DNA of 45,480 nucleotides, taken from the IMG/VR virus record IMGVR_UViG_3300044259_000241, positions 1 to 45,480 of that record; one strand, written 5' to 3'. Made by a program: the position numbers and the translations under genes. The notes under the pieces are model-generated. The model was given only the letters and a program-made list of their open reading frames with translations. It was not told where the DNA came from and made no database searches. This stretch comes from a virus (Duplodnaviria > Caudoviricetes). This document shows positions 24,590-42,701 of this stretch, in pieces (position 1 is the stretch's first letter; every line of letters begins with the position of its first letter).

Positions 24590-24606
24590 AGTATTAGTTA
24601 GTGTAA

Positions 24607-24795
24607 TTATTCGGGCGGCGAAAGAGGCCCCTGTAAAACTTCGGCTTCGCCGTTGTCGCAGATGTCATCGCCCTGCGTCAAATGCCAGACCCCTGTTATG
24701 GATCGGCCTGTTTCCAGGTCTTCAGTTACACCGTGGGTATAGTAAGCGACCTGCCTGATGCCGTTGTGCTGTATCCAATAAAAACCCTCTTCCAT
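24607..24795 (-). CDS. Small acidic moron protein
   Basis: RBS GGAGGGG; TATAAT at 24822-24827 on the minus strand; flanked by terminators. Confidence 0.75.
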   Translation of the reverse strand: MEEGFYWIQHNGIRQVAYYTHGVTEDLETGRSITGVWHLTQGDDICDNGEAEVLQGPLSPPE

Positions 24796-26760: not shown

Positions 26761-26923
26761 GACCCCTCCGTGCCGCGAGACGCAGCCATTTCTGATCCAC
26801 CAGGCGGGCGGTGTAGTCCTTCAGTGTCGGGATGTCGGACGGCTTAACCACTGGCTTACGCTTGCGGTGAGCCGGAACGCGGAAGATTTCGTTGGCGATG
26901 ACGCGGGAAAGTGGAGTAGACAT
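26753..26923 (-). CDS. ninE: NinE family protein, 56 aa
   Basis: Translated by hand: MSTPLSRVIANEIFRVP...KPSDIPTLKDYTARLVDQKWLRLAARR. Confidence 0.75.
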   Translation of the reverse strand: MSTPLSRVIANEIFRVPAHRKRKPVVKPSDIPTLKDYTARLVDQKWLRLAARRGHA

Positions 26924-27504
26924 CAGGCCTCCTGCTTATCGCGCAGCTGCTGGTACTCGCAACTGGATGTAGCAGAGCAATAACTCCACTTCATCCCCCT
27001 GTGCTCACCCTGTTTTCCATTGATCGACGCGTGCACTAACGCTGGGTTGCATCCGTACTTCTTAGTGGACTGCATCGATGGAAACCAGTACCCGAACCCA
27101 TCCCGCTCTGCGATTACAGGTGTTTTATTCCTGTTAGACAGACCGGTTTCATTAGCGTGCTTCATGTTCATGGCATGGGTGCACCACTCAAGATTCTCTG
27201 GCAGATTGTTGTGCTTATTTCCATCGATGTGGTTAACGTGTGGGTAGTTATTAGGATTTGGCACAAACGCGAGCGCCACGAACCGATGTAGCATTTCGTG
27301 TTTATTAGAAAGTGATACCCTGATGTATTGGGATGATGTGCATCCCTTTAGAATCCGCCCAGCAATAGTCCTGGTAGTCCAGGTCTTTTTGTCTGGTCCG
27401 CACGTAGTTACTTTGCGTGCCAAGCTACGTACGCGAGCAAGAGAGCTAACTTCAAACCGATCTTCATACCCCGGCACCGGCTTCCAAATTTCATTCTCAA
27501 ACAT
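26923..27504 (-). CDS. NUMOD4-HNH homing endonuclease
   Basis: EIWKPVPGYEDRFEVSSLARVRS (NUMOD4); HRFVALAF...VNHIDGNKHNNLPENLEWCT (HNH). Confidence 0.92.
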   Translation of the reverse strand: MFENEIWKPVPGYEDRFEVSSLARVRSLARKVTTCGPDKKTWTTRTIAGRILKGCTSSQYIRVSLSNKHEMLHRFVALAFVPNPNNYPHVNHIDGNKHNNLPENLEWCTHAMNMKHANETGLSNRNKTPVIAERDGFGYWFPSMQSTKKYGCNPALVHASINGKQGEHRGMKWSYCSATSSCEYQQLRDKQEA

Positions 27505-27928
27505 GATCGTGTCCTTTTTCGTGATATTCGGAGTTGGCAGGGATCCGCAATTTGATACCGCGCTCGGCGCACCAGACTTCAATGCGGCGCAGGTAGAAGG
27601 TCATCTCTTCGGTGTTGAGTAGCTTGGTTGACTTCACCATCTTGGTTTCACCAAGAACGGTTACAGGCTTGGCCGGGCAGAACATATCCTTCAGAAACTC
27701 ATGAAGGTCTTCCTCGGTTAACTTGTTTTCGGAGTGGTGGTTGACGGCAGATGCAACGTCGCCATTCCACATCCAGAGAAGGGCATTTTGGGAAAGGCTA
27801 CGCTTGTCCTTCCATGGCTTGATGATGAGGCGATAGCAGTCGCCAGATTCCAGCATTGGCTGTATCTGCTGCCCGATGGCGGAAAAATTGGATTTGTGCA
27901 GACGGATGCCGTCTTTGTTCATGTTCAT
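27497..27928 (-). CDS. ybcN: NinB/YbcN family protein
   Basis: DGIRLHKSNFSAIGQQIQP, KRSLSQNALLWMW. Confidence 0.85.
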   Translation of the reverse strand: MNMNKDGIRLHKSNFSAIGQQIQPMLESGDCYRLIIKPWKDKRSLSQNALLWMWNGDVASAVNHHSENKLTEEDLHEFLKDMFCPAKPVTVLGETKMVKSTKLLNTEEMTFYLRRIEVWCAERGIKLRIPANSEYHEKGHDHV

Positions 27929-27987: not shown

Positions 27988-28124
27988 TGACAAGGTGATA
28001 CGTTCAGATTGTGGTCGCATTTAATGTCCCCATCAAATGCGAAGAAGTCACCGCCGGGTGTTCAGTCCGACAGTATGAACAGTATGGCTTAGTGATTTCT
28101 AATAATCAATGCGGGGGAAAAACG

Positions 28125-28144
28125 AAAAAACCACCTTTCGGTGG
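28125..28144 (-). terminator. Intrinsic terminator
   Basis: Minus strand CCACC-GAAA-GGTGG-TTTTTT. Confidence 0.85.
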
Positions 28145-28410
28145 CTTCTCGTTAGGCGACTGGCAGGCCAAGGTAATGCTAATTCCTCCGAGTTGCGGTT
28201 GGTCATCCAGGGAATGGACGTATCCAGCCATCGGACTCCGCAAAACGGAATTATGTCCGGCTCCAAGGCTTTTCGCGAGTTAACCCCTACCCACAACAGT
28301 AGAGGCTAGAGCTGAACAACCCTCCGGGCTGAACTGCAAAGTTCGACTCTGTCGAAGCTTACACCCTATGCTCGCTATCCAATCTTACTTTCTATCCCCT
28401 AACCGGACAC
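28125..28410 (-). ncRNA. Putative structured non-coding RNA
   Basis: No credible ORF; nested long-range helices and several hairpins with G-U pairs on the minus strand; ends at a terminator. Confidence 0.5.
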
Positions 28411-28602
28411 TGAGATGTTGTGCTCTTCAGGAGCATGTGGGGGAATCCAAAAACTGGGTCAAAATAACCTCCATTCTTTTCATCTCCTACGGGGGAAGAA
28501 TCTATTAAACCTTTGTTTGCATGAAGTTTCAACTGCGAAAATTATAGTTTTTAACTTCTTTATGCATTGGTGATCAGCACGAACATTACTGCGTCGAATG
28601 GG

Positions 28603-28851
28603 TTAGGCATGGCGCACCTCGAATGCAGCTTCAGGAACGGTATCTGCAATCCAGCCGGAGCATTTCCTGCATCGAAAAACGGTTACACCATCCTGCGAAT
28701 AAACAAACTGGCCTATCACCTCAGGCTCTACGTTTTCGTCAGGATAGAACGGACGCTTTCTGTCGGTGCGTCCGCATGACTTTGGATCGACGTTCAACTC
28801 GATGCTGATTGGCTCACCGCAGCTGCATTTCCCCTGGATGATTTCCATCAT
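28603..28851 (-). CDS. Small Cys-rich, possibly Zn-binding protein
   Basis: CSCG...CRKC; coupled to the upstream ORF. Confidence 0.7.
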   Translation of the reverse strand: MMEIIQGKCSCGEPISIELNVDPKSCGRTDRKRPFYPDENVEPEVIGQFVYSQDGVTVFRCRKCSGWIADTVPEAAFEVRHA

Positions 28852-39040: not shown

Positions 39041-39193
39041 ATGACTCACGCTCACGACGACATCAGGGTTGGCACACTGTGCCTTCCCTTCATTGGTAAC
39101 GGCTGGCTAATGCCTTGGGGTGAAGTGGTCAGCAATCCCTTAAAGGCGCAGCGGCTCGCTGAGGAATATCGGGAAAGGCAGGAGGCGGCATGA
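39041..39193 (+). CDS. DUF1317 family protein, 50 aa
   Basis: Translated by hand: MTHAHDDIRVG...NPLKAQRLAEE. Confidence 0.75.
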   Translation: MTHAHDDIRVGTLCLPFIGNGWLMPWGEVVSNPLKAQRLAEEYRERQEAA

Positions 39194-39672
39194 CAGATTC
39201 AACAATATTGGACATGTGCTGCGGTTCTCGCATGTTCTGGTTCGATAAGCAGGATGATCGCGCTGTTTTCAGTGATATCCGCGCCGAGCAGCATGAACTT
39301 TGCGACGGCCGCCAGTTAATCATAAGCCCGGACCTTATAGCTGATTTCCGTGCCCTTCCCTTTGCCGACAACACTTTCCCTGTAGTCGTGTTCGATCCGC
39401 CACACCTTGAGCGCGTCGGAGATAACGCGTGGATGGGGAAAAAGTACGGCCGGCTGAACAAAGAAACGTGGCGCGATGATCTGCGTGCCGGCTTCGCAGA
39501 AGCATTTCGGGTGTTGTGGCCACACGGCGTGCTCATCTTCAAATGGAACGAAACGCAGATCCCGGTAAGCAATATTTTGGCGCTGACTGACGAGAAGCCG
39601 GCCATATGGCAACGAACAGGAAAAGCCGACAAAACCCACTGGGTTATTTTTGTGAAAGGCGGCGCGAAATGA
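39190..39672 (+). CDS. SAM-dependent methyltransferase
   Basis: ILDMCCGSRMFW and VFDPPH. Confidence 0.85.
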   Translation: MTDSTILDMCCGSRMFWFDKQDDRAVFSDIRAEQHELCDGRQLIISPDLIADFRALPFADNTFPVVVFDPPHLERVGDNAWMGKKYGRLNKETWRDDLRAGFAEAFRVLWPHGVLIFKWNETQIPVSNILALTDEKPAIWQRTGKADKTHWVIFVKGGAK

Positions 39673-40520
39673 CAGGAAAATACTCTCTTATCTACGCTGA
39701 TCCACCTTGGTTTTACGGTAACACCATCAGTAACGGGGCCGCCGCCGACCACTACTCAACCATGAAGTTAATCGACATCAAGCGCCTGCCGGTGTGGGAG
39801 CTTGCCGCAGAAAACGCGGTGCTGGCGATGTGGTATACCGGCACGCATAACCAGGAGGCTATCGAACTGGCTGAGGCCTGGGGTTTTACCGTTCGCACGA
39901 TGAAAGGATTTACCTGGGTGAAGCTTAACCAGAACGCCGAACTGCGCATCAACAAGGCGCTAGCCGAGGGTGAAGTCAACGACTTTTACGACTTCCTCGA
40001 TCTGCTTAACGCCGAGACGCGCATGAACGGCGGCAACCACACCCGGGCCAATACCGAAGACCTGTTGATTGCCACCCGCGGCGCCGGGCTGGAACGAAAG
40101 CACGCCGGGATTAAGCAGGTGGTATACAGCCCCCTCGGCGCGCACAGCGAAAAGCCGTGGGAAGTACGCCACCGGCTGGAGTTGCTTTACGGCGATGTGC
40201 CGCGCATTGAGCTGTTCAGCCGTAGCGCAGCGCCAGGCTGGCACCACTGGGGAAACGAATGTTCCTCCAGTATAACCCTCACCCCAGGAATGGTTGGTAC
40301 ATCAGAACCGACACCGGAGGGTTATGAAACAGATTGCGTAATTTGGCCGGCAGAGGTCGAGATGGTTTTCAGTGCCGTTGAACATGACGGCGCCATTACT
40401 GAAAAAAATAAGCGCAAGCTCAAATTTCACATCAACCGCATGTGGTTAGAGAAAACACCCATTCCTCAAATAGTAGTGTCCGCGCGGTCGTTAATCGCAA
40501 CAATGGAGAGAAGCTCGTGA
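39669..40520 (+). CDS. MT-A70 family adenine methyltransferase
   Basis: IYADPPW, AWGF, FTWVK, HSEKP, RIELFSR. Confidence 0.9.
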   Translation: MTGKYSLIYADPPWFYGNTISNGAAADHYSTMKLIDIKRLPVWELAAENAVLAMWYTGTHNQEAIELAEAWGFTVRTMKGFTWVKLNQNAELRINKALAEGEVNDFYDFLDLLNAETRMNGGNHTRANTEDLLIATRGAGLERKHAGIKQVVYSPLGAHSEKPWEVRHRLELLYGDVPRIELFSRSAAPGWHHWGNECSSSITLTPGMVGTSEPTPEGYETDCVIWPAEVEMVFSAVEHDGAITEKNKRKLKFHINRMWLEKTPIPQIVVSARSLIATMERSS

Positions 40521-42391
40521 AAGAAATCATCGTTGACAATTTTGCCGGTGGAGGCGGGGCAAGTACGGGTATTGAATTGGCGATTGGCCGCAGCGTGGAC
40601 ATTGCGATTAACCACGACCTGAATGCCGTTGCTATGCACACTACTAATCACCCGGACACTCTGCACTACTGCGAAAGTGTGTTTGATGTTGACCCAGCAA
40701 CAGCGACCGCAAGTAAACCGGTTGGCCTAGCCTGGTTCAGCCCTGACTGCCGACACTTCTCAAAAGCGAAAGGCTCAAAACCGGTTGAGAAAGAGATTCG
40801 CGGATTGGCATGGATCGTCATTCGTTGGGCTCTGTCCGTTCGTCCGCGGGTGATGATGCTGGAGAACGTGGAGGAGTTCAAAACCTGGGGACCGCTGCTG
40901 GCCGAGGAAATGCGCCCTGACCCGGCTCGCGCCGGCGAAACATTCGAAGCTTTCTGCGGAATGCTCTCCTGTGGCATTCCGGCATATCATCCGGCGCTGG
41001 CCGAGTGCTGCGAGTTCTTGGACATTCTGCCGGATAGCCAGCAAGCTCAGCAGTTGATTAATGGTCTGGGCTACAACGTCGATTACCGTGAGATGCGGGC
41101 GTGTGACTATGGCGCGCCGACCATTCGTAAGCGATTCTTCATGATCATGCGCTGCGATGGCGTGCCAGTGAGGTGGCCGGCGGCTACGCACGGAGACCCG
41201 AAGTCGCCAGCGGTACAGGCGGGAAGCCTGTCGCCGTGGCGCACAGCTGCGGAGTGTATCGACTGGTCAATTAGCGCCCCGTCAATCTTTGGTCGGAAGA
41301 AAAAGTTAGCTGAGAACACCCTAAAGCGCATCGCCAGAGGCATCCAACGCTTCGTTCTGGACAATCCGACGCCTTTCATCGTGAAGTGCAACCACACCAC
41401 CACGAAGGGCAAATATGACTGTTTCCGTGGACAATCGCTGGCTGATCCGCTTCAGACCATCACCAAAACTCACGGATACGCGCTCGCCGTTCCGCACCTA
41501 ACAAAGTTCCGAACCGGCGCTACCGGGCAGGAGGTTACCGAACCGTTACCGACGATCACCGCCGGCACGTCGAAACGACCTGGCGGCAATGGGCATGCAT
41601 TGGGTATGGTCGAAGCTGCACTTACACCGTTTATTGCCAGACAGTTCGGCGCCAGCGTCGGTCATACGGTTGACGAGCCGAGCGCTACGGTAACCGCTGG
41701 GGGCGGAGGAAAATCGCAGCTGGTGACGCCGACGCTGATCCAGATGGGATATGGCGAACGCCCAGGCCAGGCGCCGCGGGTTCTGCAACTGGAAAAACCG
41801 CTGGGGACGATTACCGCCGGAGGCGGAAAGTTCGCAATGGTCGCGGCGAATATGGTGAAACACTTCGGCGGGAATTACACCGGGGCTGGCGTTGCGCTGG
41901 ACGAGCCCATTCACACCGTGACCACTACCGATCACCATGCTCTGGTCACCTCCAGCATTATCAAAATGCGCGGTACCAATACCGGCCAGCCGACTGACAC
42001 TCCACTACAAACCGTGACCGCTGGCGGTCAGCATTTTGGTGAAGTTAAAACCACGCTGGCAAATGAGGGATACGACGAACACCGCGCACAGCTTACGGCT
42101 GATTTCCTACGGGAATATTGTGGGGAGGATTGCACCGGCCTTGTTACTGTCGATGGCATCACTTACCGCATCGTAGATATCGGCATGCGAATGCTTCAGC
42201 CCCATGAGTTATATCGGGCGCAGGGTTTCCCTGAGTGGTACATCATCGATAGGGATTACCGCGGCGTGAAGTATGCGAAGGATAAGCAGGTGGCACGCTG
42301 CGGTAATGCTGTTCCGCCTCCGTTCGCTGAAGCTCTGGTAAGGGCAAATTTGCCAGAAATGTGCGTAACAAGAGGATCGGAGGCAGCATGA
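40517..42391 (+). CDS. C5 cytosine DNA methyltransferase
   Basis: DNFAGGGG, SPDC, ENVEEF, PTIRKR, CGNAV; GTGA-coupled start. Confidence 0.92.
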   Translation: MKEIIVDNFAGGGGASTGIELAIGRSVDIAINHDLNAVAMHTTNHPDTLHYCESVFDVDPATATASKPVGLAWFSPDCRHFSKAKGSKPVEKEIRGLAWIVIRWALSVRPRVMMLENVEEFKTWGPLLAEEMRPDPARAGETFEAFCGMLSCGIPAYHPALAECCEFLDILPDSQQAQQLINGLGYNVDYREMRACDYGAPTIRKRFFMIMRCDGVPVRWPAATHGDPKSPAVQAGSLSPWRTAAECIDWSISAPSIFGRKKKLAENTLKRIARGIQRFVLDNPTPFIVKCNHTTTKGKYDCFRGQSLADPLQTITKTHGYALAVPHLTKFRTGATGQEVTEPLPTITAGTSKRPGGNGHALGMVEAALTPFIARQFGASVGHTVDEPSATVTAGGGGKSQLVTPTLIQMGYGERPGQAPRVLQLEKPLGTITAGGGKFAMVAANMVKHFGGNYTGAGVALDEPIHTVTTTDHHALVTSSIIKMRGTNTGQPTDTPLQTVTAGGQHFGEVKTTLANEGYDEHRAQLTADFLREYCGEDCTGLVTVDGITYRIVDIGMRMLQPHELYRAQGFPEWYIIDRDYRGVKYAKDKQVARCGNAVPPPFAEALVRANLPEMCVTRGSEAA

Positions 42392-42428: not shown

Positions 42429-42482
42429 ATTGCTGGCATTCATCTACAACCGAATTAACCGACAGTTCCGGGAGCATTGACC

Positions 42483-42701
42483 ATGGCCGATTTAATCGAC
42501 ACCGCTTCAGAGATTGAAGAGCTTCAGCGTAACGCTGCCCTTTCCGCTCACCGGCTCAACCGCAATGCCGTATCAGCTGAGCATTGTGCGGAATGCGGGG
42601 AAGACATCCCAGCGCCGAGGCGCGCTGCCGTTCCCGGCTGCCAGACGTGTTCCAGTTGCCAGGAAGAGATCGAACTGAGGAATAAGCAGCGAGGTGCGTA
42701 A
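42483..42701 (+). CDS. TraR/DksA C4 zinc-finger protein
   Basis: ADLIDTASE; CAECGEDIPAPRRAAVPGCQTCSSC. Confidence 0.9.
   Translation: MADLIDTASEIEELQRNAALSAHRLNRNAVSAEHCAECGEDIPAPRRAAVPGCQTCSSCQEEIELRNKQRGA

What the first reader, a model, noticed from the sequence alone, without database searches (positions are those of the whole stretch)
28125..28546. Candidate novel structured ncRNA moron upstream of ybcN
Seen, pairing on the minus strand: outer helices 28398-28403/28151-28156 and 28379-28384/28158-28163; domain closure 28371-28375/28275-28279; hairpins at 28342-28356 (extendable), 28317-28331, 28281-28308 (10 bp) and 28226-28270; then a GAAA-loop terminator. Several pairs are G-U on minus but would be A-C on plus, which favours a minus-strand RNA. 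A TATAAT lies at 28541-28546 with no clear -35, and there is no credible long ORF. Inference: a stand-alone ~280-400-nt RNA gene in a slot where protein morons usually sit; possible decoy, antitoxin/anti-defence RNA or ribozyme. I do not recognise the family.
Basis: partly seen in the sequence, partly recalled or inferred. Interest (0 to 1): 0.8.

Follow-up and report, generated by a model that had tools for sequence, protein, structure and literature searches.

The report
Knotted orphan RNA in lambdoid prophages
This lambda-like prophage carries a 340-base stretch whose knotted RNA fold is kept by matching mutations in relatives from E. coli, Klebsiella and Enterobacter phages and matches no catalogued RNA family; it is likely a stand-alone RNA gene that would work by binding and neutralising a host protein, and it could be studied in laboratory E. 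coli.

Summary
The structured RNA is real and lies on the minus strand, about 28497 to 28158, followed by a terminator at 28150-28125. Homologues occur in 74+ IMG/VR loci, 159 of 5426 E. coli genomes and four cultured phages, mostly just upstream of ninB/ybcN. In 28 aligned copies (57-99.7% identical), 95% of cells of an 84-pair model pair, and 35 pairs show double changes (0 of 500 shuffles match this). G-U cells outnumber A-C cells 244 to 5. Its outer helix, its 28226-28270 hairpin and its TATAAT are not conserved; a conserved -35/-10 pair lies at 28532-28504. Rfam has no match. There is no fixed partner gene, reverse transcriptase or AvcI likeness. RNA-seq contigs over the E. coli copy are 10-160-fold deeper than flanking contigs in one study and flat in another. 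Function is not shown; the best guess is a trans-acting protein-binding decoy (about 0.4). Many copies, but not this one, have a single NrdR-like box. Earlier scan notes already reported the family from E. coli copies; this is a divergent clade.

The parts
28158..28497 (-). Conserved structured RNA core, about 340 nt; 5' end inferred from the promoter, 3' end is the last conserved helix
   Evidence: alignment A3, pair counts, promoter spacing
28527..28532 (-). Predicted -35 hexamer TTGAAA
   Evidence: sequence; like hexamer in 24 of 25 representatives
28504..28509 (-). Predicted -10 hexamer TTTAAT, 17 nt after the -35; lacks the usual A at position 2, so the consensus scan did not list it
   Evidence: TTTAAT in 17 of 24, TTAAAT 4, TTATAT 2, TATTAA 1; 0 promoters listed by the scan
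28535..28550 (-).
28394..28497 (-). 5' domain closed by helix A (28497-28492 with 28399-28394); holds a hairpin at about 28481-28448 and the strands that pair into the 3' domain
   Evidence: helix A 94.6% paired, one double change; hairpin from consensus folding
28292..28422 (-). Kissing-loop pseudoknot E: 28422-28417 pairs with the 6-nt loop 28297-28292
   Evidence: 98.8% paired, 3 of 6 pairs with double changes; 10 double changes against 2 other events on the tree
28254..28409 (-). Pseudoknot helix D: 28409-28401 with 28262-28254
   Evidence: 98.8% paired, 4 of 9 pairs with double changes
28275..28375 (-). Three-way junction domain: G (28375-28371/28279-28275), H (28368-28363/28312-28307) carrying hairpins 28362-28335 and 28331-28316, and K (28306-28283)
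28158..28384 (-). 3' domain closed by helix F (28384-28379/28163-28158); inside it helix C (28269-28264/28172-28167; two U-U mismatches in this copy) and a variable 3' subdomain at about 28249-28188
   Evidence: F 100% paired but no double changes; C 92.9% paired with 3 double changes
28176..28447 (-). Possible further long-range helices N (28447-28441/28187-28181) and M (28436-28433/28179-28176); weakly supported
   Evidence: N: 1 of 5 pairs with a double change; M: 4 invariant pairs, which say nothing either way
28125..28150 (-). Intrinsic terminator, GAAA loop, U tail
   Evidence: a like terminator follows 22 of 74 IMG/VR copies by a simple pattern
28603..28851 (-). Upstream neighbour, 82-aa gene of unknown function (phrog_19024); not a fixed partner
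27497..27928 (-). Downstream neighbour ninB/ybcN-type gene, which marks the slot
   Evidence: phrog_72, Pfam NinB

Best explanation
The stretch is a conserved, multiply pseudoknotted RNA of about 340 nt that is likely transcribed as a stand-alone accessory gene from its own predicted promoter, and that would act in trans through its folded shape by binding and neutralising a host protein, most likely an RNA- or nucleotide-sensing defence or RNA-processing factor. Shown: conservation of the fold, the strand, the knotted topology, and independence from flanking genes. Inferred: start site, promoter use, and expression in the lysogen (indirect, from the E. coli homologue). Untested: the protein partner and the decoy role. 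Layered odds: real structured RNA about 0.95; stand-alone and trans-acting about 0.75; protein-binding decoy about 0.4.
For: Covariation: 95.2% of 2350 cells paired, 35 of 84 pairs with double changes, 0 of 500 shuffles as high, slid controls 31-41%. On a tree, 62 double and 72 single pair-keeping changes against 46 breaks. G-U 244 vs A-C 5. Promoter hexamers in 24 of 25 representatives; terminator. What follows the RNA differs: no gene in the window's clade, or one of at least five different ORFs, and a cargo gene occurs without the RNA in 2 of 5 loci. No reverse transcriptase in 30 of 30 carrier records. Three complete carrier phages share only ordinary lambdoid genes and no common base-pairing target, which argues against an antisense sRNA and for action by shape. 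The RNA is retained in an E. coli DLP12-locus defective prophage and on chromosomes in 158 of 159 E. coli hits. RNA-seq contigs spanning the E. coli copy have mean depth 247-568 against 3.5-25 for flanking nin-region contigs in study P1. That morons in this slot often serve defence or counter-defence is recalled, not tested here.
Against: No partner protein or target was identified, so the decoy step has no direct support. Expression evidence is from contigs, which show no strand, ends or local depth; it concerns a homologue 60% identical to this copy; the high contigs also include the downstream ORF and upstream sequence; run X5 is flat (3.9-4.8); three raw-read runs lacked the element. The -10 lacks the usual A at position 2. 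Folding z-scores are not significant. The 84-pair model was drawn from these same sequences, which favours it over the controls. This copy breaks 12 of 84 pairs, the most of the 28 (7 of 71 outside the variable subdomain; others 0-9). An earlier scan note on the family is marked 'part of it fell', and I could not see which part.
Confidence: 0.4

Rival explanations
1. An RNA-only particle like ROOL or GOLLD: the long-range helices and a self-complementary hexamer would form between copies to build a dimer or cage, with no protein needed.
For: Prophage location, several pseudoknots and no partner gene match the description of ROOL and GOLLD (PMC12286853, passages). A palindromic GCATGC at alignment columns 63-68 occurs in 26 of 28 copies. 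Covariation cannot tell intramolecular from intermolecular pairs.
Against: About half the size of ROOL (659 nt in the cited structure). No tRNA gene in the window. The window is one of the 2 copies with ACATGC; the motif was also part of my search patterns, so its constancy is partly by construction. No Rfam match.
Confidence: 0.2
2. A cis-acting leader (riboswitch- or attenuator-like) that would control read-through into the cargo gene or the nin genes behind it.
For: Promoter, RNA, terminator, then a gene in several lineages; in 51 of 74 IMG/VR copies (mostly near-identical E. coli ones) no terminator pattern follows and an ORF starts about 30 nt later.
Against: At least five different downstream ORFs and none in the window's clade. 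I saw no conserved strand able to disrupt the terminator (inspection sequences). 340 nt with 53 invariant columns outside the model's pairs (some lie in the 5' hairpin) is more than such a switch usually needs (recalled).
Confidence: 0.12
3. A ribozyme of a new class. The order of strands around helices C and D and the 3' subdomain, and the stacked H-K junction with an invariant G-U pair, recall the P7/P3/P8 and P4/P6 core of group I introns (recalled resemblance).
For: Dense knotted core; 117 of 351 columns invariant; K opens with three invariant pairs including G-U.
Against: The outer pair of helix C is G-C in only 17 of 28, so there is no conserved guanosine site. The RNA does not interrupt a gene and has its own promoter and terminator. 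Rfam's intron and ribozyme models give nothing at E up to 10 or 5.
Confidence: 0.1
4. The RNA antitoxin of a type III toxin-antitoxin pair (AvcI- or ToxI-like), with the ORF behind it as toxin; copies without an ORF would be orphan antitoxins.
For: Size near AvcI (about 280 nt; PMC10511110, passages). One cargo family (176 aa) has an RxxxxH motif and a weak HEPN lead (atlas score 0.78).
Against: Cargo genes are unrelated to one another. A 90%-identical copy of the HEPN-like gene has no RNA upstream (L341; RNA in 3 of 5 loci). No match of the profile or the covariance model in 11 avcD loci. No repeats in the RNA were noticed. No PADLOC hit for the 4 cargo proteins scanned.
Confidence: 0.08
5. 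The orphaned RNA of a ribonucleoprotein from a mobile element or defence system (DRT/retron ncRNA, omega-RNA) whose protein has been lost or is borrowed from the host.
For: Size and pseudoknots resemble such RNAs (recalled).
Against: No RT in 30 of 30 carrier records. No Rfam HEARO or RT-motif hit. No distant relative beside any protein in 150 Enterobacterales genomes. Direct comparison with DRT2 RNAs could not be made because no DRT2 locus was found in 301 genomes.
Confidence: 0.07
6. Not a functional RNA: a decayed gene, or DNA conserved for another reason.
For: Folding z-scores at chance level. GenBank annotates tiny ORFs over the copy in phage IdasGreatGrand.
Against: Covariation and G-U bias. 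No frame open across the family, and indels of 1, 2 and 10 nt.
Confidence: 0.03

Closest known systems
ROOL and GOLLD large ornate RNAs of phages and prophages (PMC12286853, passages read)
   Same: Stand-alone, prophage-borne, several pseudoknots supported by covariation, no known protein partner, function unknown.
   Different: About 340 nt against 659 nt (ROOL env-120) and over 800 nt (many GOLLD); enterobacterial lambdoid phages; nin-region slot, no tRNA island; no Rfam match; oligomer state untested.
AvcI RNA antitoxin of the AvcID dCTP-deaminase system (PMC10511110, passages read)
   Same: About 280-340-nt noncoding RNA in gammaproteobacteria; the proposed mode (binding and inhibiting a protein) would be alike.
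   Different: No avcD beside it; no similarity to the DNA around 11 avcD genes, whose upstream regions looked AT-rich and unrelated.
Group I intron catalytic core (recalled)
   Same: Similar order of strands for a P3/P7-like pseudoknot and a stacked P4/P6-like pair of helices.
   Different: No conserved guanosine-binding pair, no exons, own promoter and terminator, extra helices F, G and E; no Rfam hit.
NrdR-repressed promoter of E. coli nrdHIEF (PMC13584703 parts 1-2 of 4; PMC12176259 passages)
   Same: In 13 of 24 homologues a 16-mer with all six key NrdR positions ends 2 nt before the -35 hexamer, the same register as at nrdH.
   Different: The second box required for binding has at most 4 of 6 key positions in all 24; the window's first box is degenerate.

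Membership tests
Any Rfam 15 family (ROOL, GOLLD, OLE, raiA, HEARO, introns, ribozymes, tmRNA) | Match to the family covariance model | tested here: not met
   None over the RNA at gathering, at E<=10 on the window copy or at E<=5 on five homologous loci; ARAGORN 0 genes
ROOL/GOLLD-like kind (descriptive) | Large, covarying, multiply pseudoknotted, prophage-borne RNA without partner gene | tested here: met
ROOL/GOLLD-like kind (descriptive) | RNA-only homo-oligomer or cage | not testable with these tools
   needs cryo-EM or mass photometry
AvcI / type III antitoxin | Fixed toxin gene directly downstream | tested here: not met
   no gene or one of at least five different ORFs; cargo without RNA
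AvcI / type III antitoxin | Sequence or structure similarity to RNA upstream of avcD | tested here: not met
   0 of 11 avcD loci; the covariance model covers only the central 157 positions
DRT or retron ncRNA | Reverse transcriptase gene in the same element | tested here: not met
   0 of 30 carrier records, control rang in 3 of 14 genomes
DRT2 ncRNA | Similarity to DRT2 RNAs | tested here: inconclusive
   no DRT2 locus found to compare
Group I intron | Conserved guanosine-binding G-C pair in P7, splice sites within a host gene | tested here: not met
   G-C in 17 of 28 at the matching place; intergenic with own signals; the feature list is recalled
Self-cleaving ribozyme | Self-cleavage in vitro | not testable with these tools
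   bench assay
NrdR regulon | One box with C4, A6, A8, T9, T11, G13 at the promoter | tested here: inconclusive
   met in 13 of 24 homologues (background 28 of 284,020 positions), not met in the window (4 of 6)
NrdR regulon | Second box 15-16 bp away (both boxes needed, PMC13584703) | tested here: not met
   at most 4 of 6 key positions in 24 of 24; pair scores up to 10.1 against 20.7-27.3 for left-out E. coli sites
Phage packaging RNA (pRNA-like) | Tied to one head/terminase module | tested here: not met
   the window shares head proteins with Kp4856-1 but not with IdasGreatGrand, and all three carry the RNA

The most novel reading that the evidence does not exclude
A new class of compact, ribozyme-scale knotted RNA that lambdoid prophages use as an RNA-only counter-defence factor, switched on in most lineages through an NrdR-type operator when DNA precursors run low, and binding a host nucleotide-depleting or RNA-sensing defence protein.
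Probability: 0.12. Interest if true: 0.93.

Novelty: new variant of a known kind. Interest (0 to 1): 0.68.

Why it matters
Large knotted phage RNAs (ROOL, GOLLD) have structures but no known function. This unrelated, smaller class sits in E. coli and Klebsiella lambdoid phages, four of them cultured (IdasGreatGrand, Turner, Kp4856-1, Kp4862-1), and in about 3% of complete E. coli genomes. Deletion, pull-down and cryo-EM are therefore feasible in the best-equipped host. The window's copy belongs to a clade only about 60% identical to the E. coli copies, which supplies much of the covariation. Within this scan the family is not new: earlier notes described it from E. coli copies.

Tried and rejected
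Single-sequence folding: not informative. Alternative helix 43-50/330-337 (alignment columns): no double change in 8 pairs and broken where helix C covaries; the U-run fits a 5' hairpin instead. Alternative partner 55-60 for the GGGGAT strand: broken in 3 copies where helix A holds. Distant relatives: none in plasmids; 1 of 401 Enterobacteriaceae genomes by BLAST, the centre genome itself; in 150 Enterobacterales genomes the covariance model found only that genome plus one E=0.08 fragment, not followed up; none significant in 5 jumbo phages, best E 0.17. Extra pattern scans added three full-length divergent copies and one 5'-truncated copy, and the other new pattern hits were chance. 28 of 64 metagenome hits were family members, all close to known types. 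One pattern scan returned 0 even for known members, so its spacing was probably wrong. A full-length covariance model could not be calibrated, so only the central 157 positions were modelled. Base-pairing targets in three carrier phages: none shared; host mRNA targets were not searched. Cargo proteins: no Pfam, PADLOC or PDB assignment, only PHROGs of unknown function; atlas leads under 0.9 or unnamed. Raw-read runs X14, X16 and X18 do not hold the element, so they are no test. DRT2 loci were not found. Literature: nine searches listed no description of this RNA. The supplements of PMC10690425 gave no motif or contig hit in the four files that could be searched, but its alignment archives and PDFs could not be read.

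Full report
Setting. The window is a complete lambdoid provirus record. On the minus strand the order is O, P, ren, accessory genes, an 82-aa unknown gene (28603-28851), the flagged gap, a ninB/ybcN-type gene (27497-27928), an HNH gene, ninG and Q. The three ORFs of 65-90 codons that overlap the gap match no PHROG.

Observation. The case therefore rests on homologues. BLAST with the window found partial 71-73% matches in two Klebsiella phages and one E. coli genome. A motif scan gave 74 IMG/VR loci. Two independent motifs returned largely the same contigs plus three new full-length copies and one truncated copy. The E. coli type is in 159 of 5426 complete genomes. Four records of the phage collection carry it. 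One GTDB genome, Enterobacter pasteurii, matched, and 28 of 64 metagenome pattern hits were members. I aligned 28 sequences chosen by hand as representatives of the distinct types; the many near-identical E. coli copies were left out except two. Pairwise identity is 57-99.7%. The window groups with five others at 77-81% and is about 60% identical to the rest.

Structure. An 84-pair model built from helix scans has 95.2% of 2350 cells paired and 35 pairs with changes on both sides. No shuffle of 500 reached these values, and sliding partners by 1-3 columns drops pairing to 31-41%. The model came from these sequences, so the controls flatter it. As a check on relatedness, parsimony on a tree gave 62 double and 72 single pair-keeping changes, against 46 breaks, 10 restorations and 4 others. 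G-U cells number 244 and A-C cells 5, which fixes the minus strand. A 5' domain is closed by helix A (28497-28492/28399-28394) and a 3' domain by helix F (28384-28379/28163-28158). Strands from the 5' domain reach into the 3' domain: E (28422-28417) kisses the 6-nt loop of hairpin K (10 double changes, 2 other events on the tree), and D (28409-28401) pairs with 28262-28254. Two more crossings, N and M, are possible but weak. F has only one-sided changes and A only one double change. No frame stays open across the family. The window's copy breaks 12 of 84 pairs, the most in the set; 5 of these lie in the variable 3' subdomain, where its clade folds differently.

Signals. In 24 of 25 representatives a -35-like hexamer is followed 17 nt later by TTTAAT (17), TTAAAT (4), TTATAT (2) or TATTAA (1), and helix A begins about 7 nt further on. 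This predicts a start at 28497. The -10 lacks the usual A at position 2, so the consensus scan missed it and promoter strength is uncertain. A terminator follows at 28150-28125. Just upstream of the -35, 13 of 24 homologues have a 16-mer with all six key NrdR-box positions, in the same register as at E. coli nrdH; background is 28 of 284,020 positions. These copies share descent, so they are not 13 independent events. NrdR needs two boxes, and loss of G13 abolished binding at a native site (PMC13584703, parts 1-2 of 4 read). The second box has at most 4 of 6 key positions in all 24, and the window's first box is degenerate. NrdR control is a lead only.

Context. In the loci visible (its output was cut in the middle) the RNA usually lies before a ninB/ybcN-type gene. 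It is followed by nothing (the window's clade) or by one of at least five different ORFs, with or without a terminator (22 with, 51 without, 1 truncated of 74 by a simple pattern). A 176-aa HEPN-like cargo has the RNA in 3 of 5 loci; a 178-aa cargo has it in 8 of 10, the two distant relatives lacking it. No carrier record of 30 has a reverse transcriptase. Three complete carriers share only ordinary lambdoid genes and have different head modules, and four conserved segments show no common base-pairing target.

Expression. Only the E. coli type could be tested. In study P1, contigs spanning it have mean depths of 568 (1585 nt), 480 (1415 nt), 247 (3849 nt), and 568 plus 394 where a contig breaks inside the RNA. 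Flanking nin-region contigs have 3.5-25. Depth times length is similar across runs (0.7-1.2 million, my arithmetic, not normalised for library size), as expected of a concentrated source. This fits an abundant transcript at this place but does not give strand or ends, or separate the RNA from the ORF behind it. A 2014 run is flat at 3.9-4.8. Three raw-read runs lack the element.

Mechanism. With no fixed neighbour, no shared antisense target found and a core conserved in shape, action in trans by the folded molecule is the most economical reading (inference). I commit to a protein-binding decoy or inhibitor of a host factor at about 0.4, ahead of an RNA-only oligomer (0.2), a cis leader (0.12), a ribozyme (0.1), an antitoxin (0.08), an orphaned RNP RNA (0.07) and no function (0.03). 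None of these was tested directly.

Comparison with what is known. Rfam gives nothing over the RNA. In kind it resembles ROOL and GOLLD, prophage RNAs with many pseudoknots, no known partner and unknown function (PMC12286853, passages), but it is not a member. AvcI (about 280 nt; PMC10511110, passages) was tested and not matched. The group I intron likeness is recalled and fails at the guanosine site. PMC12176259 was read in passages for the NrdR sites. Nine library searches listed no description; the other papers were seen as listings and abstract starts only. The library lacks most subscription papers, and the alignment files of the viral structured-RNA catalogue PMC10690425 could not be read, so a fragment may already be catalogued there. 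The scan's own notes describe the same family from E. coli copies (8 shown, 30 look-alike windows), one marked 'part of it fell'; a search with the window's own sequence found none. These notes are not independent support.

Verdict. A real, uncatalogued, heavily knotted RNA family; the window holds a divergent member. Structure is well supported, expression is indirectly supported, and function is open. Interest 0.68.

Noticed in passing
window 24603-24699 (-): Rfam isrI match (51.1 bits, gathering 45) overlapping a 62-aa ORF (phrog_1856) between Q and the holin.
   Followed up: no
window 26923-27582 (-): NUMOD4-HNH endonuclease whose longest frame overlaps the end of ninB; not seen at this place in the other carrier loci visible, so not a partner.
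   Followed up: partly
   Followed up: no
window 28109-28119: Just after the terminator an 11-base stretch repeats the family's conserved C-rich 5' motif; chance not assessed.
   Followed up: no
window 39190-42391 (+): Three DNA methyltransferase genes in a row; also a UmuD-like gene at 1046-1363 and a DksA-like zinc finger at 42477-42701.
   Followed up: no
L049 2622-2828 and 1356-1586; L061 2194-2400 and 3429-3575: The ninB-leader-like sequence occurs on both sides of the RNA-plus-cargo cassette, as if the cassette came in with a duplication.
   Followed up: no
L069 and L095: Broken E. coli-type copies: L069 loses the 3' end to what looks like an insertion sequence, and L095 lacks the 5' third, so the RNA is dispensable in some strains.
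   Followed up: no
L006 3320-3517 (-): C4 antisense RNA, isrK and a Bro-N/P22AR antirepressor lie just upstream of the E. coli-type RNA.
   Followed up: no
L004 1635-2165 (-); L049 1650-2183 (-): Cargo proteins with an RxxxxH motif (weak HEPN lead) and a PIN-like start (by eye); both unannotated and possibly ribonucleases.
   Followed up: partly
L336 2967-3267: GenBank calls two tiny hypothetical ORFs over the RNA in phage IdasGreatGrand; they are probably spurious.
   Followed up: partly
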